A DNA stretch of 64,000 nucleotides from the NCBI GenBank assembly GCA_963662495.2, contig CAXVYQ010000002.1, positions 390,355 to 454,354 of the forward strand. The letters are read 5' to 3'. A program made the position numbers and the translations under genes. Below the pieces are notes generated by a model. That model was not told the origin of the DNA, did no database searches, and saw nothing but the letters and a program-made list of their open reading frames with translations. Source of the DNA: Terriglobia bacterium (GTDB lineage Bacteria; Acidobacteriota; Terriglobia; 2-12-FULL-54-10). Shown here one piece after another: positions 2,013-59,606 of the stretch (its first letter is position 1; each line of letters starts with the position of its first letter).

Positions 2013-4046
2013 ATGCATAAACCAACAAAGTATCTGGATAAAGGGATCACTGTGGCCGCCAATGCGGCTTGGAACACCATTCAGTTTTTCAATCAATACA
2101 AGCCGAACAAGACCTTTACGCCAAAATGGTCGGAAAAGCCGCTGTTGAAGTCCTACCAGAAAACGAAGCCGACGCTCGGCTGGCCGCGCCAGACCGACTC
2201 GCTCTGCCCGGTGTGCGTGCGGGAAGCCCGCAAACGCATTTTGGATGGCGACCAGGAAGTCTCCACGCTCGTAAACGAGAAGGTGGGTGAAATCAAAGCG
2301 ACGATTCTGGAGCGCGACGGCAAGATCATGATCGAGAAGGATTGCCCGGAGCACGGGCATTTCGAGGACGTCATGTCCATTGACCCGGAATTCCTGACGC
2401 ACATTGAAGCCATGTTCCCGGGCCGCGACATCCAGGCGCACAATGACAAGGACCTCCACAACCATGGCACCAGCACGATCAAGCATGGCCGCGGAGCCGT
2501 GCTGACGATCGATCTGACGAACCGCTGCAACATGATGTGCGACCCCTGTTTCATGGATGCCAATCAGGTCGGGTTCGTTCATGAGCTGACCTGGGATGAT
2601 GTGAAACAGTTGCTCGACAATGCCATCAAGATCAAGCCGCGCCGGCAGATGTCCGTGCAGTTTTCCGGCGGCGAGCCGACCATCTCGCCCTACTTCCTGG
2701 ATGCCTGCGCCTATGCCCGCAAAGTCGGCTACAACAGCGTGCAGACGGCGACGAACGGGATCGAGTTTGCGCAGAGTCCTGAGTTTGCGAAGAAGGCATA
2801 TGAAGCAGGATTGCGGTATGTCTACCTGCAGTTTGACGGCATCGGAAACGCCGCGAACGATCATCGCAGAGTCGGGAACCTGTTCGATGTGAAGCTGAAA
2901 GCGATTGAAAACTGCCACACCGCGGGAATCGAGATCATTCTGGTTACCACGCTGGTAAATGAAGTGAACAACGAGCAAGTGGGGCCGATCATTCAGTTCG
3001 CGCTGGACAACCCGGATAAGATCGCCTTCATCTCCTTCCAGCCGGTTTCCTTCACTGGACGGGACGAGGAGATCACCGATGAGCGCCGCTTGCGCCAGCG
3101 CTACACGCTTTCGCACATGGCGCACGATGTGAAGCGGCAGACCGGCATGACGGAGCCGACCCGGGATTGGTTCCCGCTATCGTCGATGGGTAGTTTTGCG
3201 GATCTGGCCGACCTGATTCATGGTCCCGAGGAGCAGTGGGGGCAGGTGAGTTGCAGTTGCCACCCGAACTGCGGCGTGGGCACGGCGGTCATGGTGAACA
3301 AGAAGAACAAGGAGTGGGCTCCGGTACCGCAGTTCCTGAACGTCCCGCAGTTGTTCGATGACATGCGGACGATCACCGACTCCGCGCGCGGGAAGTTCTT
3401 CTCCAACCTGCAGATGGGTCTGGCGATGTGCAGGAACTTCGATCCCTATCAGGCGCCACCCAGCCTCGGGCTGGCCGACATCTGGAAGAAGATCGATAAG
3501 TCGCTCGGGCTGACCGGCTCGGATTATGGCGTGGGCCTGGAGCGCCGGAAGGATCCGTGGAACTTCCTGTTCATCGCGGGAATGTGGTTCCAGGATCTGT
3601 GGACCTATGACTTCCGCCGGACGGAAATGTGCGTAATCCCCTACGCCACGCAGGAAGGTGAGATCTCCTTCTGCGCCTACAACACCGGTGTGGGCTGGAG
3701 AAATATCATCGAAAAAATGCACATGACGGCGACGCTGACCAAGTGGTATGAGGACAAGGGACGGCATGCCATCTATGCCGGAGGCAAGGCGGTTCCGCTG
3801 GCCGACGAGGAGCACTCACTGAGGTTGAACACCGAGCACGTCGAGCGGGGGCCGCAGATCTCGGAAGGTCCGCAGAATGCGCGTCAGGAAAAGATGGCGT
3901 CAACCGAAGAGCTTCAGAATCGAGAGATGATGAAGCTCTATCGTCAGCATGTGTTGAAAGAAGAGACAGTGAATCTGGTCCAGATCGGATCTGCGCCCAA
4001 GCCGAAGGTCGATGTAACGGAAGACGAGTTGGTAGCAGGCGACTAG
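2013..4046 (+). CDS. radical SAM enzyme with an N-terminal Cys-knuckle domain (MJ0619 / tetraether-lipid-synthase-like architecture)
   Basis: 677-aa ORF. It has the CX3CX2C motif NRCNMMCDPC, preceded by SLCPVC ... DCPEHGHF knuckles and followed by GGEPT and further Cys clusters (CSCHPNCG, CVIPY..ISFCAYN). The antisense ORF 1884-3125 is Arg/Gly-rich noise. Confidence 0.7.
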   Translation: MHKPTKYLDKGITVAANAAWNTIQFFNQYKPNKTFTPKWSEKPLLKSYQKTKPTLGWPRQTDSLCPVCVREARKRILDGDQEVSTLVNEKVGEIKATILERDGKIMIEKDCPEHGHFEDVMSIDPEFLTHIEAMFPGRDIQAHNDKDLHNHGTSTIKHGRGAVLTIDLTNRCNMMCDPCFMDANQVGFVHELTWDDVKQLLDNAIKIKPRRQMSVQFSGGEPTISPYFLDACAYARKVGYNSVQTATNGIEFAQSPEFAKKAYEAGLRYVYLQFDGIGNAANDHRRVGNLFDVKLKAIENCHTAGIEIILVTTLVNEVNNEQVGPIIQFALDNPDKIAFISFQPVSFTGRDEEITDERRLRQRYTLSHMAHDVKRQTGMTEPTRDWFPLSSMGSFADLADLIHGPEEQWGQVSCSCHPNCGVGTAVMVNKKNKEWAPVPQFLNVPQLFDDMRTITDSARGKFFSNLQMGLAMCRNFDPYQAPPSLGLADIWKKIDKSLGLTGSDYGVGLERRKDPWNFLFIAGMWFQDLWTYDFRRTEMCVIPYATQEGEISFCAYNTGVGWRNIIEKMHMTATLTKWYEDKGRHAIYAGGKAVPLADEEHSLRLNTEHVERGPQISEGPQNARQEKMASTEELQNREMMKLYRQHVLKEETVNLVQIGSAPKPKVDVTEDELVAGD

Positions 4047-4564: not shown

Positions 4565-4641
4565 GGGCGGTTAGCTCAGTTGGTTAGAGCACCTGCCTTA
4601 CAAGCAGGGGGTCGCAGGTTCGAGTCCCGCACCGCCCACCA
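4565..4641 (+). tRNA. tRNA-Val (anticodon TAC), CCA encoded
   Basis: Hand-folded cloverleaf: acceptor GGGCGGT/ACCGCCC, D arm GCTC/GAGC, anticodon stem CCTGC/GCAGG with loop CTTACAA, T arm GCAGG-TTCGAGT-CCCGC (one A-C mismatch), then discriminator A plus CCA. Confidence 0.9.
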
Positions 4642-4760: not shown

Positions 4761-5870
4761 GCTGTTGCATGATTCAACCTTGGCGCGAGTCAGGCCGTTT
4801 TCCCAACCGCTCATTCATGACACCACGGCGTAGGACTTAGGACTCCCGAGCTCGGCCATCCGGTTGAGGATGTGACACCCAATCGTGGCTTCTCTCCTTT
4901 GCGCGTTGCTGTTCCTCGCCTTCAGGCTTCCTCCGAGCACTGCCTTGTATCGGAAGAACGCGTTCTCAACGCGCGCCTGCTGACGGTAGCCCGACTCCTT
5001 CTGCCACTCTCGTCGTCCGATCTTACGAATCCTCTGAAGAGCCGCTTCTCGTTGCGCCCACGGGCCGTCCGTGGGCCCCGCATCCACCGCACAGCGACGA
5101 GGGGGGATCACGATCACGACGTCCTTTGTACCGGCCGCGCCGACCCGATCGTAGATCGACCTGTGGTCGTAGGCCCCGTCCGCCGTGAAACGCCGGATGG
5201 GAACCTCGATCTGGTCGAGCAGATCCGGCAGGGCGGAGGCGTCGTCCCCGCTGCTCGTCGTGAGTTCGGCCGCCACAATGAACCCCTCGTCATCCACTCC
5301 GATGTGCAGCTTTCGCCAGTCCCGGCGTTTCTTGGATACCTTGTACTTGTGCGCGTTCCACTCGCTGCAACCCAGGATCTTGAGCCCCGTGGAATCTACG
5401 ATCAGGTGGATCGGGCCGTCGTGGGCTCGGGTTAGGGGCGGCACATCAACTATTTGGTTCCGGCGCGAGAGTGTGGTGTGGTCCGGAGCCTTGAGGTCGA
5501 GGTCCATCAAGCTGAGCAGAGAGTCCAGGAAACCCTCGGTCTGGCGAAGTGGCAGGCGGAAGACGACCCGCAGCGTCAACGCGGTCAAGATCGCGAGGTT
5601 TGAATACCGCCGCTGGCCTCCCCGGAGACCGTTCTTCGCCGGTATCCACGCGGCAATCGCCTCCTCGCTCAGCCAGATCGTGACGTCGCCGCGGCTCCTG
5701 AGGCCACGTTCGTATTCCCTCCAGTTCCGGATTCTGTACTTCGTCTTGTACTTGCGGTTGACTCGGCTCGACTTCCCTGCGGCCATGACGTTGCCCCCCT
5801 TGATCTCCATGATGGATCGGGACACCCAGCCATTGCTAGCGTGGGAGCCGAGGCTGATTCATGCACCAAC
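4761..5870 (-). mobile_element. IS5-family insertion sequence (about 1.1 kb)
   Basis: Imperfect terminal inverted repeats are gctgttgcatgattcaaccttggc (4761-4784) and the reverse complement of 5847-5870, gttggtgcatgaatcagcctcggc (19/24 identical). They bracket a single DDE transposase gene. Confidence 0.75.
4815..5825 (-). CDS. IS5-family DDE transposase
   Basis: The 336-aa ORF has the YKTKYRIRNWREYERGLRSRGDVTIWL N-terminus and the DSTGLKI ... ADGAYD ... RQQARVENAFFRYK (DDE) blocks typical of IS5. The true start may be the MAAGKS Met at 5786. Confidence 0.85.
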   Translation of the reverse strand: MSRSIMEIKGGNVMAAGKSSRVNRKYKTKYRIRNWREYERGLRSRGDVTIWLSEEAIAAWIPAKNGLRGGQRRYSNLAILTALTLRVVFRLPLRQTEGFLDSLLSLMDLDLKAPDHTTLSRRNQIVDVPPLTRAHDGPIHLIVDSTGLKILGCSEWNAHKYKVSKKRRDWRKLHIGVDDEGFIVAAELTTSSGDDASALPDLLDQIEVPIRRFTADGAYDHRSIYDRVGAAGTKDVVIVIPPRRCAVDAGPTDGPWAQREAALQRIRKIGRREWQKESGYRQQARVENAFFRYKAVLGGSLKARNSNAQRREATIGCHILNRMAELGSPKSYAVVS

Positions 5871-6927
5871 GCAGTTTCAGATGTTCGGCGTCGAAACGTG
5901 CTCCTTTCTTCCAGACGATCCAAGTGATCGTCGCAATCTTGCGTGCCACGGTGAGTCGAGCCAGCGCAGGCTTCATCCCCTTGGCCAGTAACCCTTCGTA
6001 ATACTCATGCAACAATCCAGTCGAACCGCTGGCCTGCATGGCCGCGCTCTTGAAGATCCATTTCAGATCATGGTTGTGGTTCTTATTCAGACCCCGCAGC
6101 GCCACCGGTTTCTGGGAACGGCGCAGTTGCCCATCCACGTAACGGTATTCCCGACTACCACGTGTCTCGATCGCCAGGCCGCTGTAGGCCCATAGTTGCC
6201 GCTTCGTCCGGAACCGGTGTGGGGTCTGTAGCAGCGCGATCAACACCGCCGCACGGATCGGACCGATTGACGGAATCTGGCGCAGCAATTTCGTCGCTCC
6301 ATGCTTGCGGCTCTCCGCCAGTAGATCCCGGCGCACCGCCTGGCGTAATGCTTGCAGCCCGTCCAGTTGCTGATAGAGGAACTCAGCCCGACAGCGCACA
6401 CCGGCTTCCGTGATCTTGCTCAACCATTCCGAACGATGTCGCGGTGCGTAGACTTGCGTGCCCGCGCAGGCAATACCCCAGCTTCGGTACAATGCCTTCA
6501 GCCGATTCATCACTCGCGTGAGATCTTTGCTCACCGTCAGATAACTCCGCGACAGCTCCTGCAACGTGCGTAGACCCTTTTCCCCATGGTAGACCGCCGA
6601 GAGCGATCCATTCCGCAGCAGTTCGGCCAGCTTCCTCGCATCGATCCGGTCGCTCTTGTTGCCCGATTTCAGCAACGCATTCTTTCGCGGATCGCACACG
6701 ATCAGCTGCGACACGTGAGGCCGCAGCAAGTCATACAGCCAGGCAGCCCAGGTCCCCTCTTCCAACGTGACCTGCAAATCCCCCTGCAGTCCTTGGAGGA
6801 ACTGCACAATCGTGGCTGCCTTCGTTTCTACGATCGTCTCCATCACCAGCTTGCCCGAAGAGTTCATGACCGCAATCGTTATCGCTTCTTGGTGCACGTC
6901 CATCCCGATATACTTTGTTCTATCCAT
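5836..6927 (-). CDS. IS110-family recombinase/transposase, copy 1 (C-terminus reads into the IS5 inverted repeat)
   Basis: It has the IGMDVH, LEEG, CDP and KSDRIDA DEDD/RuvC-like motifs, then QIPSIGPIRAA and YSGLAIETRGS in the C-terminal domain. The last residues RWCMNQPRLPR replace the QAA of copy 3. Confidence 0.9.
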   Translation of the reverse strand: MDRTKYIGMDVHQEAITIAVMNSSGKLVMETIVETKAATIVQFLQGLQGDLQVTLEEGTWAAWLYDLLRPHVSQLIVCDPRKNALLKSGNKSDRIDARKLAELLRNGSLSAVYHGEKGLRTLQELSRSYLTVSKDLTRVMNRLKALYRSWGIACAGTQVYAPRHRSEWLSKITEAGVRCRAEFLYQQLDGLQALRQAVRRDLLAESRKHGATKLLRQIPSIGPIRAAVLIALLQTPHRFRTKRQLWAYSGLAIETRGSREYRYVDGQLRRSQKPVALRGLNKNHNHDLKWIFKSAAMQASGSTGLLHEYYEGLLAKGMKPALARLTVARKIATITWIVWKKGARFDAEHLKLRWCMNQPRLPR

Positions 6928-7006
6928 TCAGGCTGCTCCTTTCGATAGGCGTTAAGGTTAACGCTCGAAACCTATCGCACTAGGGGCGCCCTTTTATAAT
7001 GCGTGT
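5871..7006 (-). mobile_element. IS110-family element, copy 1 (3'-truncated: lacks the roughly 435-nt tail present in copies 2 and 3)
   Basis: Near-identical to 58232-59367 and to most of 10398-11488. Identity starts exactly at the IS5 terminal repeat (5870/5871) and ends after ...ataatgcgtgt (7006). Confidence 0.8.
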
Positions 7007-9630: not shown

Positions 9631-9998
9631 TTTGTCAAGTTAAGGCAGATTCAGACAGAATTGCCAGATGAAATCATCAGTCACATCGTCTGGCCGTATT
9701 CGGCCGACCATTCTCACCATGAGATAACCGATAAACAGCCACTCTTAGGGTCCAAGACGACGCATTTTTCCTGCGGCGGGTAGACAGACGTACCTAACCA
9801 ATGGGGGGAGGGGGTCGGAGGGCAAACAGGACACCCCCGGTGGGGGTCTCGCAGGGCTGTGCTGCCTGGCTTAATCGAATTCATACTCCAATCCCCGACC
9901 AATCAATGGCAAGACCTACAAACCAGCACCTGCCAGAATCACTAGATTTCATAAGGGCTTGTTTGCCTTTCCCCGGATAGGTCCTCACTAGTCGCGAA

Positions 9999-10397
9999 GT
10001 CCTATAAAAGGGGATGTCAAGAAAAAAGACCTCCCCGGCCACCGGAGAACACGGAAGTTCTCGTGCATCCAGCCCCCCCCGGTACGTTCGGCTCGTGGTC
10101 CTGACCGTTCTGGCCTTTCGTGTTGCGACCAGCCGGCATGCTTCCTCCATCCCAGCAGTTTCATCTTTGCGGTTACGACGACGCCCTTGGTTTCCCGAAA
10201 CCGGCAAGCGGGGTGGTTGCAGAGTTGGCAACCATGGTCCTATCGGAGACTCGTGGCCTATAGCTTTCTTGGGTTATCCGAGGGGGCATAGAGTGTTTAT
10301 AGAGACTCGGTGCCGGTGGCACACAGGGCCTAACTACGCGATGGATGCTCTCCCTCGAACCCGAGCGTCTCAAGAACCCATTGGGCACCGCCGGAGA
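9999..10397 (-). repeat. copy of the IS110-associated non-coding tail (second copy at 57785-58183)
   Basis: A line-by-line comparison of the two copies shows a single mismatch over about 399 nt. Confidence 0.9.
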
Positions 10398-11409
10398 CGA
10401 TCCAAGTGATCGTCGCAATCTTGCGTGCCACGGTGAGTCGAGCCAGCACAGGCTTCATCCCCTTGGCCAGTAACCCTTCGTAATACTCATGCAACAATCC
10501 AGTCGAACCGCTGGCCTGCATGGCCGCGCTCTTGAAGATCCATTTCAGATCATGGTTGTGGTTCTTATTCAGACCCCGCAGCGCCACCGGTTTCTGGGAA
10601 CGGCGCAGTTGTCCATCCACGTAACGGTATTCCCCACTACCACGTGTCTCGATCGCCAGGCCGCTGTAGGCCCATAGTTGCCGCTTCGTCCGGAACCGGT
10701 GTGGGGTCTGTAGCAGCGCGATCAACACCGCCGCACGGATCGGACCGATTGACGGAATCTGGCGCAGCAATTTCGTCGCTCCATGCTTGCGGCTCTCCGC
10801 CAGTAGATCCCGGCGCACCGCCTGGCGTAATGCTTGCAGCCCGTCCAGTTGCTGATAGAGGAACTCAGCCCGACAGCGCACACCGGCTTCCGTGATCTTG
10901 CTCAACCATTCCGAACGATGTCGCGGTGCGTAGACTTGCGTGCCCGCGCAGGCAATACCCCAGCTTCGGTACAATGCCTTCAGCCGATTCATCACTCGCG
11001 TGAGATCTTTGCTCACCGTCAGATAACTCCGCGACAGCTCCTGCAACGTGCGTAGACCCTTTTCCCCATGGTAGACCGCCGAGAGCGATCCATTCCGCAG
11101 CAGTTCGGCCAGCTTCCTCGCATCGATCCGGTCGCTCTTGTTGCCCGATTTCAGCAACGCATTCTTTCGCGGATCGCACACGATCAGCTGCGACACGTGA
11201 GGCCGCAGCAAGTCATACAGCCAGGCAGCCCAGGTCCCCTCTTCCAACGTGACCTGCAAATCCCCCTGCAGTCCTTGGAGGAACTGCACAATCGTGGCTG
11301 CCTTCGTTTCTACGATCGACTCCATCACCAGCTTGCCCGAAGAGTTCATGACCGCAATCGTTATCGCTTCTTGGTGCACGTCCATCCCGATATACTTTGT
11401 TCTATCCAT
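10330..11409 (-). CDS. IS110-family recombinase, copy 2 (C-terminus altered by the 93-bp deletion)
   Basis: The 359-aa ORF is identical to copies 1 and 3 apart from a few substitutions up to ...ATITWIV. It then reads SGGAQWVLETLGFEGEHPSRS out of the non-coding tail. Confidence 0.85.
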   Translation of the reverse strand: MDRTKYIGMDVHQEAITIAVMNSSGKLVMESIVETKAATIVQFLQGLQGDLQVTLEEGTWAAWLYDLLRPHVSQLIVCDPRKNALLKSGNKSDRIDARKLAELLRNGSLSAVYHGEKGLRTLQELSRSYLTVSKDLTRVMNRLKALYRSWGIACAGTQVYAPRHRSEWLSKITEAGVRCRAEFLYQQLDGLQALRQAVRRDLLAESRKHGATKLLRQIPSIGPIRAAVLIALLQTPHRFRTKRQLWAYSGLAIETRGSGEYRYVDGQLRRSQKPVALRGLNKNHNHDLKWIFKSAAMQASGSTGLLHEYYEGLLAKGMKPVLARLTVARKIATITWIVSGGAQWVLETLGFEGEHPSRS

Positions 11410-11614
11410 TCAGGCTGCTCCTTTCGATAGGCGTTACCTTCGATACTGAAAACCTATCGCACTAGGGGCGCCCTTTTATAATGCGTGTAGACCTATCCGG
11501 CAGGCAGGATGACTCGCCACTACGCCGTCAGGATCTATGTTGCCTGATCGCGTGGCGGTCAAATTCCGAGATGCCGATCAAGATGTAAAAAAGTGGTGGT
11601 CCGCTCGTGGGCAG

Positions 11615-56413: not shown

Positions 56414-57749
56414 TCATTCAATCTCCTCACCGAAATCATAATCGGCCTCGAACCGGAAGTTCATTTGCGGCCCTACGGCCGGTAAACTCAGTTCGCTTGC
56501 GAATTCCTCTCGCAGGACAATCGTTTTCCCTCCCAATACCGTCATCACAGGGAAGACTGTCGGTATCTCCTCCACGGGCACCGTGAAGTAATCCTTGTTA
56601 AAAACCACAAAATCCGCAAATTTACCTGGTTCCAAAGTCCCTATTTCCTCTTCCTTTAGTACGTAATAGGAAGGCCACACTGTGGACATCTTCAGCAGGG
56701 TAACGCGGTCGATTGCTTCCTCGGGAGCGACCAACTCGCCCCGCACATTCTTCCTGGTTATCAACGGCAGCACCTGGGCATAGAAGGTCGGCCCCTCCCC
56801 GCTTTCAACTCTCAGCTCCGTCTCGGCGGTTGGCATCACACCTCCTTCGATGATGCTCTTGATCGGAGCGATTCGGAGCGATTCGGTTGGCTTTGTCCTT
56901 CCCGTAGATCGCCAGCCATGGCGCGCTTCGATTGATGGTCGTCCCTCCACAACTGAGGATCCAGCCAAAGCTTTTCATCCGCGGAAGCTGATCCTTGCGC
57001 GGATAGAACCCACAATGATCGGATGTCACCCGCAGGGACCGCATAGTATCCAGTGTAATATCCGGGTTTTCCTCAATCACCTGATTCATGATATCCATCA
57101 CGTAATCAACAGCCTTGTCTCCATAGGCGTGGTTCACAACGAACCGATAGCGCGCCCGAAATGCCGTAGCGATTGTCTCCCAGTAGGAATTTCCAGGTTG
57201 GACCCTGCATTTCTCCTGCGCTTTGAATTTTGCCGGCGCCTCCATGGTCGTGCACATCCCTCCACCAGGGGCACCGTCGATCCCTCCCAGCGTCAGACCG
57301 ATATTCCAGAAGTACTTGTCGCCTAGGCCGGACAGGTTACCAACCCGCAGAAAGCAGCCGGTCGTATCTGGTTCCACTTGCTGACATAGGCGATGAGCAA
57401 AGGCATACCGCATCGGCATCCGTTTTTCCCGAACCAGTTTCATGTAGGCTGGCAACATGCGCAGGCCATACAGATGGGAACTGAACGTGGTGAACCCGGC
57501 AGCTGCATGGTGCTTTAGGGCATCTTCAATCACATCCGACAATTCGCCCAGATGGCGATCGAAGTAGCGGTCCGGAATCAGAGAGCGGCCAATCACCGTT
57601 CGGGATCTCATGGCTAGTTCTTCGTTTTCCACCGTGGGTTCAATCGCATAGTATTTGAGAAAATCATTCATTGCTGCCGTATTCCAAATGTCGCTGCCGA
57701 TTGTGACCGGAAAGTCAGGCGCCAGCGCATCCAGTTTTTCCCTCGTCAT
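56414..57749 (-). pseudogene. amidohydrolase-3 (YtcJ-like) gene, frameshifted by a 10-bp tandem duplication and 5'-truncated
   Basis: ORFs 56805-57749 and 56414-56968 are consecutive parts of one amidohydrolase (…VNHAYGD…, …VTSDHCGF…, …PGKFADFVVF…). Removing one copy of cggagcgatt restores ...KANRIAPIKSIIEGGV. The N-terminal ~100+ aa are missing, with a stop at 57759-57761. Confidence 0.75.
56864..56883. repeat. 10-bp perfect tandem duplication (cggagcgatt x2) that breaks the amidohydrolase frame
   Basis: Read directly: gat cggagcgatt cggagcgatt cgg. Confidence 0.9.
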
Positions 57750-57784
57750 AATGCTGTCTCACAGGTATCGATACGCCGATGCCG

Positions 57785-58220
57785 GTCCTATAAAAGGGGA
57801 TGTCAAGAAAAAAGACCTCCCCGGCCACCGGAGAACACGGAAGTTCTCGTGCATCCAGCCCCCCCCGGTACGTTCGGCTCGTGGTCCTGACCGTTCTGGC
57901 CTTTCGTGTTGCGACCAGCCGGCATGCTTCCTCCATCCCAGCAGTTTCATCTTTGCGGTTACGACGACGCCCTTGGTTTCCCGAAACCGGCAAGCGGGGT
58001 GGTTGCAGAGTTGGCAACCATGGTCCTATCGGAGACTCGTGGCCTATAGCTTTCTTAGGTTATCCGAGGGGGCATAGAGTGTTTATAGAGACTCGGTGCC
58101 GGTGGCACACAGGGCCTAACTACGCGATGGATGCTCTCCCTCGAACCCGAGCGTCTCAAGAACCCATTGGGCACCGCCGGAGATGATCCGGGGGATCGAC
58201 GGACTCTTTACCCGAGACGC
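57785..58220 (-). ncRNA. candidate structured non-coding RNA (bridge/seek-RNA-like) in the 3' tail of the IS110-family element
   Basis: This ~435-nt stretch is conserved between two element copies and is dense in hairpins: 57831-57848, 57975-57988, 58001-58019 and 58096-58108, plus a 9-bp long-range pair between 58149-58157 and 58214-58222. It has no convincing ORF. Transcription has not been shown. Confidence 0.3.
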
Positions 58221-59288
58221 TCAAGCTGCTTGCAGTTTCAGATGTTCGGCGTCGAAACGTGCTCCTTTCTTCCAGACGATCCAAGTGATCGTCGCAATCT
58301 TGCGTGCCACGGTGAGTCGAGCCAGCGCAGGCTTCATCCCCTTGGCCAGTAACCCTTCGTAATACTCATGCAACAATCCAGTCGAACCGCTGGCCTGCAT
58401 GGCCGCGCTCTTGAAGATCCATTTCAGATCATGGTTGTGGTTCTTATTCAGACCCCGCAGCGCCACCGGTTTCTGGGAACGGCGCAGTTGCCCATCCACG
58501 TAACGGTATTCCCCACTACCACGTGTCTCGATCGCCAGGCCGCTGTAGGCCCATAGTTGCCGCTTCGTCCGGAACCGGTGTGGGGTCTGTAGCAGCGCGA
58601 TTAACACCGCCGCACGGATCGGGCCGATCGACGGAATCTGGCGCAGCAATTTCGTCGCTCCATGCTTGCGGCTCTCCGCCAGTAGATCCCGGCGCACCGC
58701 CTGGCGTAATGCTTGCAGCCCGTCCAGTTGCTGATAGAGGAACTCAGCCCGACAGCGCACACCGGCTTCCGTGATCTTGCTCAACCATTCCGAACGATGT
58801 CGCGGTGCGTAGACTTGCGTGCCCGCGCAGGCAATACCCCAGCTTCGGTACAATGCCTTCAGCCGATTCATCACTCGCGTGAGATCTTTGCTCACCGTCA
58901 GATAACTCCGCGACAGCTCCTGCAACGTGCGTAGACCCTTTTCCCCATGGTAGACCGCCGAGAGCGATCCATTCCGCAGCAGTTCGGCCAGCTTCCTCGC
59001 ATCGATCCGGTCGCTCTTGTTGCCCGATTTCAGCAACGCATTCTTTCGCGGATCGCACACGATCAGCTGCGACACGTGAGGCCGCAGCAAGTCATACAGC
59101 CAGGCAGCCCAGGTCCCCTCTTCCAACGTGACCTGCAAATCCCCCTGCAGTCCTTGGAGGAACTGCACAATCGTGGCTGCCTTCGTTTCTACGATCGACT
59201 CCATCACCAGCTTGCCCGAAGAGTTCATGACCGCAATCGTTATCGCTTCTTGCTGCACGTCCATCCCGATATACTTTGTTCTATCCAT
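58221..59288 (-). CDS. IS110-family recombinase, copy 3 (355 aa, likely the native form)
   Basis: Same motifs as copy 1. It ends ...AEHLKLQAA with TGA at 58221-58223. AGGAG lies 8 nt upstream of the ATG. Confidence 0.9.
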   Translation of the reverse strand: MDRTKYIGMDVQQEAITIAVMNSSGKLVMESIVETKAATIVQFLQGLQGDLQVTLEEGTWAAWLYDLLRPHVSQLIVCDPRKNALLKSGNKSDRIDARKLAELLRNGSLSAVYHGEKGLRTLQELSRSYLTVSKDLTRVMNRLKALYRSWGIACAGTQVYAPRHRSEWLSKITEAGVRCRAEFLYQQLDGLQALRQAVRRDLLAESRKHGATKLLRQIPSIGPIRAAVLIALLQTPHRFRTKRQLWAYSGLAIETRGSGEYRYVDGQLRRSQKPVALRGLNKNHNHDLKWIFKSAAMQASGSTGLLHEYYEGLLAKGMKPALARLTVARKIATITWIVWKKGARFDAEHLKLQAA

Positions 59289-59606
59289 TCAGGCTGCTCC
59301 TTTCGATAGGCGTTACCTTCGATACTGAAAACCTATCGCACTAGGGGCGCCCTTTTATAATGCGTGTTTAGTAATCTGGAAAATCGCAGGTGTAAACGCG
59401 GTGCGAAAATGCTAGCGAATTACGGGTTTAATCACCTTTCAAAAGGGGTCGGTTGAAAACGATAATTCGGGTATTGAAAAGAAAGGAGTTACCAAGTCCG
59501 AAAACACTCTTGCAAAAGCTAAGGCTTTTGAAAGGAATTGGGATTTCGACTGGACCTCGTGGTCCGGGGAAATCAGATGGCCCGATTTGTGTGCCAGGAT
59601 GCAAGG

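What the first reader, a model, noticed from the sequence alone, without database searches (positions are those of the whole stretch)
57785..58223. IS110-family element carries a ~435-nt hairpin-dense tail downstream of the recombinase gene: candidate 3' bridge/seek RNA
Two of the three IS110-family copies (9999-11488 and 57785-59367) keep the same long sequence beyond the recombinase stop codon. I found one mismatch over about 399 nt. Both copies end at the same outer nucleotide (gtcctataaaagg) while their flanking DNA differs, so the tail belongs to the element and is not flank. Read in the sense of the recombinase, the tail is packed with perfect helices: GAGAAC/GTTCTC, GGTTTC/GAAACC, GGTTGC/GCAACC, GTGCC/GGCAC, CCGGA/TCCGG, and a 9-bp long-range pair GAGCGTCTC/GAGACGCTC that starts at the stop codon. 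The 5' leader is only about 80 nt, too short to hold a guide RNA. In published work on IS110/IS1111 elements, the recombinase is programmed by a structured ncRNA (bridge RNA / seekRNA). That RNA lies upstream in the IS110 group and downstream of the CDS in the IS1111 group. This element has the IS1111-like layout, but its tail is much longer than I would expect for such an RNA. The tail could therefore hold a guide RNA plus something else.
Basis: partly seen in the sequence, partly recalled or inferred. Interest (0 to 1): 0.7.

Follow-up and report, generated by a model that had tools for sequence, protein, structure and literature searches.

The report
Guide RNA in an insertion sequence tail
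The long non-coding tail of this jumping gene encodes the guide ("bridge" or "seek") RNA that tells its recombinase where to insert, a mechanism described in 2024, so this is a clear new example of a known system and not a new kind of element.

Summary
Copies A (9999-11488) and B (57785-59367) share tail positions 41-439 with one mismatch and end at the same nucleotide. Copy C is cut off by an IS5-like element. The tail as a whole folds no better than shuffled sequence (z -0.36), so "hairpin-dense" is not evidence in itself.

In 66 related elements from Acidobacteriota assemblies the tail is 395-645 nt long. It holds two internal-loop modules of the same design.
- **Target module:** two segments match the flanks of each element's own insertion site and meet at an AC core. 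Own-guide matches total 303 of 527, against 166±11 after permutation (0 of 10000).
- **Donor module:** a 7-nt segment equals the last 7 nt of the right end in 36 of 38 elements. It changes together with that end in two clades.

The target predicted from the window's loops (TATAAACAC|TACGCGATG) matches empty REP-like palindromes found in metagenomes. Five helices show compensatory changes.

The rest of the tail holds a variable spacer, a conserved stem-loop with a terminator-like hairpin, an outward TTGACA and a 10-bp sub-terminal inverted repeat. This is the published IS1111-type layout, so it is a new member of a known kind.

The parts
57785..59365 (-). Intact element copy B. In the recombinase sense it reads: core AC, GCAT, left inverted repeat, tnp, tail, right inverted repeat, GG, core AC.
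58221..59288 (-). DEDD recombinase gene (355 aa). The stop codon TGA at 58221-58223 is tail positions 1-3.
   Evidence: PF01548 4e-17, PF02371 5.5e-13. NF033542 'IS110 family RNA-guided transposase', 133.7 bits against a cut-off of 140.
58148..58223 (-). P1 stem-loop (tail 1-76). The closing helix pairs 1-11 with 66-76 and includes the stop codon.
   Evidence: 91% of cells paired and 4 pairs with compensatory changes; examples in L061, L063 and L027.
58064..58146 (-). Target-binding module (tail 78-160). It has a basal stem (81-86/154-159 and 90-93/149-152), an internal loop, a distal stem AGGC 107-110 / GUCU 132-135, and a capping hairpin 116-128.
   Evidence: basal stem 96-100% paired with compensatory changes; covariance model R1 hits 57997-58146.
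58119..58129 (-). Right-target guide CAUCGCGUAGU (tail 95-105). It is the reverse complement of core AC plus the right flank.
   Evidence: Copy A flank ACTTCGCGA matches 8 of 9. L088 flank and empty sites ACTACGCGA match 9 of 9.
58079..58087 (-). Left-target guide UAUAAACAC (tail 137-145). It equals the left flank plus core AC and follows the motif GAGUCUC.
   Evidence: Copy B flank ACTAAACAC matches 7 of 9. Empty site L091 GGTAAACAC matches 7 of 9.
57998..58063 (-). Donor-binding module (tail 161-226). It has a distal stem AGGC 179-182 / GUCU 188-191 and a hairpin 205-223.
   Evidence: distal stem 99% paired, with A-U changing to G-C in 8 of 49 distinct rows.
58023..58031 (-). Donor guide CGAUAGGAC (tail 193-201). 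Its last 7 nt equal the last 7 nt of the right end, ATAGGAC.
   Evidence: identical in 36 of 38 elements. It changes with the end to GAAC in L063, L069 and L077, and to GGAT in L061 and L067.
57929..57997 (-). Conserved linker (tail 227-295) with GCUUG, GUUUCR, GGCGCCGUC and a near-invariant AUGAAAC. A GUUUCR/UGAAAC helix is possible but only weakly supported.
57864..57928 (-). Poorly conserved spacer rich in insertions and deletions (tail 296-360).
   Evidence: identity 0.22-0.33 and gaps up to 18% over tail 301-360..
57827..57859 (-). Conserved 3' stem-loop (tail 365-397): GCUGGA/UCCGGU plus GCACG/CGUGU. Its 5' strand is the conserved motif GGGCUGGAUGC.
   Evidence: the same fold recurs in most homologs; only 48-78% paired on the sequence-based alignment, so support is moderate.
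57807..57835 (-). Terminator-like hairpin UUCUCCGGUGGCCGGGGAG followed by GUCUUUUUUC. It overlaps the 3' strand of the stem-loop above.
   Evidence: one site found against 1.5±1.1 expected by chance, so it is not significant alone. The T-run is absent in several clades.
57801..57806 (-). Outward-facing TTGACA (-35) in the right end. In a circle or tandem junction it lies 17 nt from CATTAT in the left end.
   Evidence: conserved in nearly all homologs; natural tandem junction in L072. The promoter itself is inferred.
57789..57798 (-). Right sub-terminal inverted repeat CCCTTTTATA, followed by GG and core AC (57785-57786).
59350..59359 (-). Left sub-terminal inverted repeat TATAAAAGGG, preceded by core AC (59364-59365) and GCAT.
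   Evidence: The two repeats co-vary in homologs: TATAAGAGGG with CCCTCTTATA, and TATGAAAGAG with CTCTTTCATA.
9999..11488 (-). Copy A. It is defective because of the 93-bp deletion across the tnp stop, but both guide modules are intact (10211-10360). It sits in a REP-like palindrome.
5871..7006 (-). Copy C. Its tail is lost where an IS5-like element was inserted.

Best explanation
The tail encodes the element's own guide RNA of the IS1111 type, known as bridge RNA or seekRNA. It is read in the same sense as the recombinase gene.

**Target loop.** One internal loop carries two guides.
- The 5' guide (tail 95-105) pairs with the top strand of the target to the right of the insertion point.
- The 3' guide (tail 137-145) pairs with the bottom strand to the left of it.
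- The two guides overlap at an AC core dinucleotide.
- Together they specify TATAAAC-AC-TACGCGATG, which lies in the loop of a REP-like palindrome.

**Donor loop.** A second loop of the same design (AGGC/GUCU distal stem, GAGUCUC, then 9 nt) carries CGAUAGGAC. This segment pairs with the right end of the element plus the core.

**Recombination (inferred).** The DEDD recombinase bound to this RNA would bring the circularised element and the target together and exchange strands at AC. That leaves one AC on each side of the inserted element.

**Rest of the tail.** A stem-loop (P1) closes over the stop codon. After the guide modules come a conserved linker, a poorly conserved spacer, a conserved 3' stem-loop with a terminator-like hairpin, an outward -35 hexamer and the right sub-terminal inverted repeat. 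In the circle the -35 hexamer would face CATTAT in the left end at 17 nt.

**Shown here:** the sequence relations, the covariation and the existence of the predicted target.

**Inferred, not tested:** transcription, RNA processing, protein binding, the promoter and the terminator.
For: 1. **Layout is conserved.** 66 related elements keep a 395-645-nt tail (395-481 in all but L002) with the same ends.
2. **Unbiased scan.** Mutual information between end or flank columns and tail columns gives its top hits at left flank -3 to +2 with tail 139-143, in register. Right flank +1 to +7 pairs with tail 103-97, antiparallel.
3. **Guides match their own sites.** Across 31 distinct guide pairs, 303 of 527 positions match, against 165.8±11.1 after permuting guides among sites (maximum 213, 0 of 10000). 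Many individual sites show contiguous matches of 9-10 nt, for example L003, L031, L062 and L071.
4. **Core covaries in five places.** L061 and L067 have AT in place of AC in both target guides, the donor guide, the left end and the right end.
5. **Donor guide tracks the right end.** It equals the last 7 nt of the right end in 36 of 38 elements and co-varies in two clades.
6. **Other copies of this IS.** Ten further places carrying the identical recombinase, on metagenome contigs, lie mostly in CGGATAGGTCT-ACAC | TTCGCGACTAG...GACCTATCCG. L088 has a perfect right half.
7. **Empty sites exist.** GGATAGGTAAACAC|TACGCGACTAG matches the predicted TAAACAC|TACGCGA at 14 of 14 positions with a single AC at the join.
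8. **Helices.** On a model-fitted alignment of 49 distinct sequences, 92% of cells are paired against 25-55% for slid controls. Seven pairs change on both sides, and the covariation score is 0.133 against 0.073 (0 of 500 shuffles). P1 is 91% paired with 4 compensatory pairs.
9. **Module sizes.** The target module is 83 nt and both modules together are 149 nt. Published short and long seekRNAs are 82-96 nt and 148-172 nt (PMC11187229; Table 1 of PMC13604230).
10. **Guide order.** The guide that pairs with the top strand lies 5' of the one that pairs with the bottom strand, as reported for IS1111 (PMC11187229).
11. **Natural junction.** A tandem right-end|left-end junction in L072 has a single core between the ends.
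Against: - There are no expression data.
- No Rfam family matches the region, even at E<=10.
- The whole-tail folding energy is not better than shuffles.
- I could not find the guide expected for the left end, the reverse complement of AC+GCATTAT. The left end is almost invariant in the family, so covariation cannot reveal it.
- In the window each full-tail copy matches the guides on one side only. Copy B's right flank does not match at all. This is explained by an adjacent deletion that also truncates the neighbouring amidohydrolase gene, but that explanation is an inference. Copy A's left flank matches at 5 of 9 positions.
- The terminator-like site is within chance expectation and is not conserved in all clades.
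- The -10 hexamer of the junction promoter fails the scan criteria in the L072-type left end.
- The related sequences are not independent, so the shuffle statistics overstate significance.
Confidence: 0.88

Rival explanations
1. The tail is only the DNA end of the element, that is, binding sites for the recombinase or host factors. On this reading the helices and flank matches are incidental and no functional RNA is made.
For: - The whole-tail folding energy equals that of shuffles.
- No Rfam family matches.
- The right end does carry DNA-level signals: the inverted repeat and the TTGACA hexamer.
Against: - DNA-binding sites would not change together with the flanking host DNA of each insertion.
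- They would not keep base-pairing through compensatory changes.
- The match to independently found empty sites needs a target-reading component.
Confidence: 0.04
2. The distal part of the tail (about tail 227-417) carries a separate passenger. This could be a small protein gene starting at the near-invariant ATG at tail 274, or an independent small RNA such as Ssr9 of ISPpu9.
For: - ATG 274-276 is nearly invariant, and a stop-free frame of 35 to more than 79 codons follows in all 37 homologs that keep the ATG.
- ISPpu9 is a precedent for an extra RNA module downstream of tnp (PMC12288879).
- A 3' stem-loop is conserved.
Against: - The frame in which that ORF reaches the right end is not conserved: 21, 10 and 7 sequences use the three frames. 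The peptides are therefore unrelated beyond about 7 residues.
- The region between is rich in insertions and deletions and only 22-33% conserved.
- Antisense ORFs of 80 aa or more are absent from most homologs.
- The covariance-model search finds no solitary copies in the window.
- AUGAAAC can pair with the conserved GUUUCR.
Confidence: 0.05
3. The conserved 3' stem-loop and the overlapping terminator-like hairpin form a switch. It would control read-through out of the right end or the stability of the guide RNA, as a regulatory layer on top of the guide function.
For: - In copy B the two hairpins share the strand UCCGGU, so they exclude each other.
- The 5' strand GGGCUGGAUGC is among the best conserved parts of the tail.
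Against: - The T-run is missing in several clades.
- Pairing on the sequence-based alignment is only 48-78%.
- The terminator-like site is within chance expectation.
- There is no functional evidence.
Confidence: 0.15

Closest known systems
IS1111-group elements with a 3' seekRNA (ISEc11, ISPa11, ISKpn4, ISPst6; Siddiquee et al. 2024, PMC11187229)
   Same: - The long non-coding region lies downstream of a DEDD recombinase gene.
- There are sub-terminal inverted repeats with short extensions beyond them.
- Two RNA segments pair with the top and the bottom strand of the target and overlap at the insertion point.
- The top-strand match lies 5' of the bottom-strand match.
- Module sizes fit the short (82-96 nt) and long (148-172 nt) seekRNA.
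- The target is a REP-type repeat, as for ISPa11.
- The right end holds a -35 hexamer suited to a junction promoter.
   Different: - The recombinase is at most about 30% identical to any IS110-family protein in the plasmid collection, and falls just under the NCBIfam cut-off.
- The host is Acidobacteriota.
- The tail is roughly 100 nt longer than my estimate for ISEc11. The excess corresponds to a stop-codon-closing stem-loop P1 and a poorly conserved spacer.
- The extension beyond the left inverted repeat is 4-6 nt, against 7 in ISEc11.
- Nothing here has been tested experimentally.
IS621 bridge RNA (IS110 group; Durrant et al. 2024, PMC11208160; structures 8WT6-8WT9)
   Same: - The RNA has two internal loops of like design, one for the target and one for the donor.
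- Guides read both DNA strands.
- A core dinucleotide is shared by target, donor and guides.
- After insertion the core is present on both sides of the element.
   Different: - The RNA lies 3' of the gene, not 5'.
- The order of the guides is reversed.
- The core is AC, not CT.
- The inverted repeats are 10 bp, against 2-3 bp.
- Only one donor guide is recognisable.
- Protein similarity is limited to the C-terminal domain (E 4e-9).
ISPpu9 with the downstream Ssr9 small-RNA module (PMC12288879)
   Same: It is an IS110-family element inserted in REP sequences, with a structured RNA region downstream of tnp.
   Different: - Ssr9 is dispensable for transposition and moves as a separate module.
- Here the downstream RNA carries the target and donor guides.
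- No separate module is seen here.

Membership tests
IS110 family (DEDD recombinase elements) | Recombinase with an N-terminal DEDD/RuvC-like domain and a C-terminal Transposase_20 domain | tested here: met
   PF01548 4e-17 and PF02371 5.5e-13. NF033542 8.1e-39, but 133.7 bits is below its cut-off of 140. IS621 C-terminal domain, E 4e-9.
IS1111 group | Sub-terminal inverted repeats of 7-17 bp, with short extensions beyond them | tested here: met
   TATAAAAGGG (59350-59359) and CCCTTTTATA (57789-57798) form a perfect 10-bp repeat. The extensions are GCAT and GG, each followed by the core. The two repeats co-vary in homologs.
IS1111 group | The long non-coding region lies downstream of tnp and the left end is short | tested here: met
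   The left end is 79 nt before the ATG and the tail is 436 nt after the stop codon. The tail is 395-645 nt in 66 relatives.
IS1111 group | Recombinase groups with IS1111-type proteins (330-350 aa, GL-P----S/TG motif) | tested here: inconclusive
   The protein is 355 aa. The motif reads GLAIETRGSG, which has the right spacing but I in place of P. No phylogeny with reference IS1111 proteins was possible. The best plasmid hits are 24-30% identical and are annotated only as 'IS110 family'.
Bridge RNA / seekRNA | RNA segments complementary to both strands of the target, overlapping at the insertion point | tested here: met
Bridge RNA / seekRNA | Guide for the donor (the ends of the element) in a second loop, sharing the core | tested here: inconclusive
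   The right-end guide is present and co-varies. A left-end guide was searched for and not found.
Bridge RNA / seekRNA | Conserved secondary structure that places the guides in internal loops | tested here: met
   basal and distal stems are 80-100% paired, and 7 of 22 pairs have changes on both sides.
Bridge RNA / seekRNA | The RNA is transcribed, binds the recombinase and is required for transposition | not testable with these tools
   No expression or biochemical data are available here.
Bridge RNA / seekRNA | Match to a curated RNA family model | tested here: not met
   Rfam 15 gives no match, even at E<=10. Whether Rfam holds any bridge-RNA model is unknown to me. The published covariance models of Durrant et al. 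were not available.

The most novel reading that the evidence does not exclude
This Acidobacteriota clade may recognise its donor asymmetrically. On this reading only the right end is read by RNA. The left end would be read through the 10-bp sub-terminal inverted repeat, by protein or by an RNA contact not yet recognised. In addition, the stem closed over the tnp stop codon, together with the mutually exclusive 3' stem-loop and terminator, would couple translation and read-through to maturation of the guide RNA. That would be a regulatory and architectural variant not described for IS621 or ISEc11.
Probability: 0.12. Interest if true: 0.5.

Novelty: new member of a known kind. Interest (0 to 1): 0.3.

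Why it matters
This gives a fully worked natural example of an IS1111-type guide RNA from a poorly studied phylum. The guides, the core, the donor match, the target repeat and empty target sites are all read directly from sequence. The recombinase is far from the characterised ones (at most about 30% identity). It could therefore be added to the small panel of programmable bridge/seek recombinases under development for genome engineering. The 66 relatives, with 31 distinct guide pairs among the sites scored, form a ready-made natural reprogramming series. The work does not change what is known about how these elements function.

Tried and rejected
- **Rfam:** searches at gathering threshold and at E<=10 found nothing in the element.
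- **Whole-tail folding:** not better than shuffles on either strand, so fold energy is no evidence.
- **Left-end donor guide:**
  - A k-mer scan of the tail against both ends in both orientations found only the palindromic GGCGCC (tail about 253-258, matching the left end's GGGCGCC). It does not co-vary.
  - The mutual-information scan showed no in-register signal for left-end or inverted-repeat columns.
  - Hand comparison of the 5' strand of the donor loop (AAGAAAGCUAU) with the expected UAUAAUGCGU gave 5 of 8 matches. The correlated change was in the wrong sense for pairing, so I rejected it.
- **Small ORF from ATG 274:** rejected because the frame is not conserved.
- **Antisense 128-aa ORF (57800-58186, plus strand):** rejected because it is not conserved.
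- **Conserved GGGCUGGAUGC pairing with the base of the target loop (GCAUCC):** no covariation. It is better explained as the 5' strand of a local stem-loop.
- **GUUUCR/UGAAAC long-range helix:** changes are mostly one-sided and some break the pair, so I leave it as only possible.
- **Target sites in the window:** there is no empty target site and no match to the predicted target.
- **First empty-site pattern:** it assumed a single AC and found nothing. The corrected pattern, allowing ACAC, found four sites.
- **Exact-protein look-up:** it failed with the window reference and worked with P0001.
- **ISSso6 from a Shigella plasmid:** fetched as a possible ISEc11 stand-in. It encodes a 375-aa protein and the covariance model did not hit it, so I did not use it.
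- **Junction promoter:** the scan found none at the natural L072 junction. The promoter claim therefore rests on hexamer spacing in the copy-B type only.
Full report
**1. The observation**

The window holds three copies of one IS110-family element, all on the minus strand.

- **Copy B (57785-59367)** is intact. Its 355-aa ORF (58221-59288) matches DEDD_Tnp_IS110 and Transposase_20.
- **Copy A (9999-11488)** is identical to B over tail positions 41-439 except for one base, and it ends at the same nucleotide. Tail position 1 is the T of the stop codon at 58223, so window coordinate = 58224 minus tail position.
- **A deletion in copy A was missed.** A 93-bp deletion lies between two GGATC(G/A)TCT repeats. 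It removes the last 18 codons, the stop codon and tail 1-40.
- **Copy C (5871-7006)** stops two codons before the stop. An IS5-like element (DDE_Tnp_1_5 and DDE_Tnp_1) is inserted there, and the rest of the tail is gone.

However, the tail as a whole folds no better than dinucleotide shuffles (z -0.36; opposite strand -0.83). Rfam has no match, even at E<=10. The case therefore rests on comparison with relatives.

**2. Relatives**

- The recombinase has thousands of relatives at 69-90% identity.
- A scan of species-representative genomes returned 80 loci, nearly all from Acidobacteriota assemblies and many from genomes with several copies.
- In 66 elements both ends could be placed. The left end starts ...AC(G/A)CATTATAAAAGGGCGCCCC and the right end finishes ...TCTTGACATCCCCTTTTATAGGAC.
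- The tail is 395-481 nt in all but one (L002, 645 nt), so the long tail is a property of the clade.
- Conservation along the tail is uneven. It is high at 61-100, 141-220, 361-380 and 421-439, and very low at 301-360, which is also rich in insertions and deletions.

**3. Two guide modules**

The alignment of 38 distinct tails shows two modules of the same design. Each has a 5' loop strand, then U-AGGC, a distal hairpin or short loop, (GA)GUCU-C, and a 9-nt 3' loop strand.

*Target module*
- The 9 nt after GAGUCUC (copy B: UAUAAACAC, tail 137-145) equal the left flank plus AC of the same element.
- The 5' strand (CAUCGCGUAGU, tail 95-105) is the reverse complement of AC plus the right flank.
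- Matches are long. Examples are L003 AUAAAAACGU (10 nt), L031 UUCAGAAGGU (10 nt), L071 CCGUCAAUGU (10 nt) and L007 CAAGCCGAC (9 nt).

*Unbiased confirmation*
- A mutual-information scan of all end and flank columns against all tail columns put exactly these relations on top.
- Left flank -3 to +2 pairs with tail 139-143 in register. Right flank +1 to +7 pairs with tail 103-97, antiparallel.

*Permutation test*
- Among 31 distinct guide pairs, guides match their own site at 303 of 527 positions.
- After permuting guides among sites the figure is 165.8±11.1 (maximum 213; 0 of 10000).
- This holds even though the alignment is one position out of register for one clade.

*Donor module*
- The 9 nt after GAGUCUC (CGAUAGGAC, tail 193-201) end in the last 7 nt of the right end in 36 of 38 elements.
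- They change together with that end: ATAGAAC in L063, L069 and L077, and CATAGGAT in L061 and L067.

*Core*
- L061 and L067 have AT in place of AC at five places at once: both target guides, the donor guide, left-end positions 3-4 and the last two bases of the right end.
- This is the behaviour expected of a shared core dinucleotide.

**4. The target**

- Ten further places carrying the identical recombinase, on metagenome contigs, sit mostly in a REP-like palindrome: CGGATAGGTCT-ACAC | TTCGCGACTAGTGAGGACCTATCCG.
- The guides of the window element predict TATAAAC-AC-TACGCGATG.
- A pattern search of metagenome contigs found four empty copies, for example GGATAGGTAAACAC|TACGCGACTAGTGCGGACCCATC. 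It agrees with the prediction at 14 of 14 positions across the join and has a single AC at the join.
- This fixes the boundaries. The element proper runs from GCATTA... to ...TATAGGAC. The AC at 59366-59367 is target flank.
- Copy A sits in such a palindrome (right half 8 of 9, left half 5 of 9).
- Copy B has a good left half (7 of 9) but an unrelated right flank. The next gene (56805-57749) starts 35 nt away and matches Amidohydro_3 only from profile position 79. An adjacent deletion is therefore the likely cause. L086 shows the same junction. L090 has a B-like left flank with an intact right half.

**5. Structure**

- RNAalifold recovers the stem closing over the stop codon (P1, 1-11 with 66-76) and the basal stem of the target module, both with compensatory changes.
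- On the sequence-based alignment P1 is 91% paired with four pairs changed on both sides. The basal stem is 98-100% paired and the donor distal stem 99%.
- A covariance model of tail 78-226 finds exactly copies A and B in the window (157 and 156 bits) and 62 sites in the loci searched.
- On the alignment fitted to that model, 92% of cells pair against 25-55% for slid controls. Seven of 22 pairs change on both sides. The covariation score is 0.133 against 0.073 (0 of 500 shuffles).
- That alignment leans towards the model and the sequences are related. The numbers are therefore supportive and not strict probabilities.

**6. The rest of the tail**

- **Tail 227-295** is a conserved linker. Its near-invariant AUGAAAC starts a stop-free frame in the homologs that keep the ATG. 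However, the frame in which it reaches the right end differs among them (21, 10 and 7 sequences), so it is not a conserved gene. It can pair with the conserved GUUUCR, though support is weak.
- **Tail 296-360** is a poorly conserved spacer.
- **Tail 365-397** is a stem-loop whose fold recurs in most homologs. This explains the conserved GGGCUGGAUGC.
- **A terminator-like hairpin with a T-run** (57835-57807) overlaps that stem-loop in copy B. It is within chance expectation and is not conserved everywhere.
- **The right end** then carries an outward TTGACA, the 10-bp inverted repeat and GG-AC.
- **A junction promoter is inferred.** In a circle the TTGACA would lie 17 nt from CATTAT of the left end, giving a junction promoter of the kind described for this family. 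A natural tandem junction in L072 shows the ends joined through one core. The scan calls no promoter there, because that left end reads CGATAT.
- **No antisense ORF is conserved**.

**7. Comparison with what is known**

The layout is the published IS1111-group layout (PMC11187229, PMC11208160).
- The left end is short and the right end long.
- There are sub-terminal inverted repeats.
- The guide RNA lies 3' of the gene.
- The top-strand match lies 5' of the bottom-strand match, and the two overlap at the insertion point.
- The target is a REP-type repeat.
- The target module (83 nt) fits the reported short seekRNA (82-96 nt). Both modules together (149 nt) fit the long form (148-172 nt).

The differences are of degree.
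- The recombinase is distant: at most about 30% identity to IS110-family proteins in the plasmid collection, 133.7 bits against a 140-bit NCBIfam cut-off, and only the C-terminal domain aligns to IS621.
- There is an extra stem-loop over the stop codon.
- The tail is roughly 100 nt longer than my estimate for ISEc11.
- No left-end donor guide is recognisable.

**8. Verdict**

The bridge/seekRNA reading is supported by target-guide and donor-guide covariation, by structure, and by the existence of the predicted empty target. This is a new member of a known kind. It is useful as a well-resolved natural example and as a possible new ortholog for engineering, but it would not surprise a specialist.

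Noticed in passing
window 4808-5870 (ORF 4815-5825, minus strand): An IS5-like element (DDE_Tnp_1_5 and DDE_Tnp_1) with imperfect terminal inverted repeats (GTTGGTGCATGAATCAGCCT / AGGTTGAATCATGCAACAGC) truncates copy C of the IS110-family element. The remaining tail of copy C is missing, and a tRNA gene (4565-4638) follows.
   Followed up: partly
window 10395-10422, corresponding to copy B 58184-58276: The 93-bp deletion in copy A lies between two GGATC(G/A)TCT direct repeats. It fuses the end of tnp into the tail. It removes the 5' strand of stem P1 but leaves both guide modules intact.
   Followed up: yes
window 56805-57784: The right flank of copy B lacks the right half of the REP-like target. 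The gene that begins 35 nt from the right end matches Amidohydro_3 only from profile position 79. An adjacent deletion probably removed the target half and the start of the gene. The outward TTGACA of the element now faces this gene.
   Followed up: partly
flanks at window 9960-9998 and 11489-11515; loci L081-L094: The target is a REP-like palindrome: GGATAGGTC, a loop containing ACAC|TWCGCGACTAG, then GACCTATCC. It is present in several copies in related genomes, both occupied and empty.
   Followed up: yes
L072 1059-1440: Two copies of a related element lie head to tail and are joined as ...TTGACTTCGCCTTTTATAGAAC|GCGATATAAAAGG. This is either a tandem dimer or an insertion into a circle-junction-like site.
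   Followed up: partly
L041 3015-3501: A partial second copy (the 3' part of tnp plus a full guide-module region at 3319-3467) lies directly after the right end of the first copy.
   Followed up: no
L082 and L084, right-end junction: The right end reads ...TATAGGAT-AGGAC-TTCGCGAC in L084 (L082: ...TTTACAGGAT-AGGAC-...). This is a 5-nt near-duplication at the junction between the right end and the target. It may be a footprint of imprecise strand exchange.
   Followed up: no
window 57859-57849 (tail 365-375) and homologs: The motif GGGCUGGAUGC is among the most conserved parts of the tail, although it lies outside the guide modules. It forms the 5' strand of a recurring stem-loop whose function is unknown.
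   Followed up: partly
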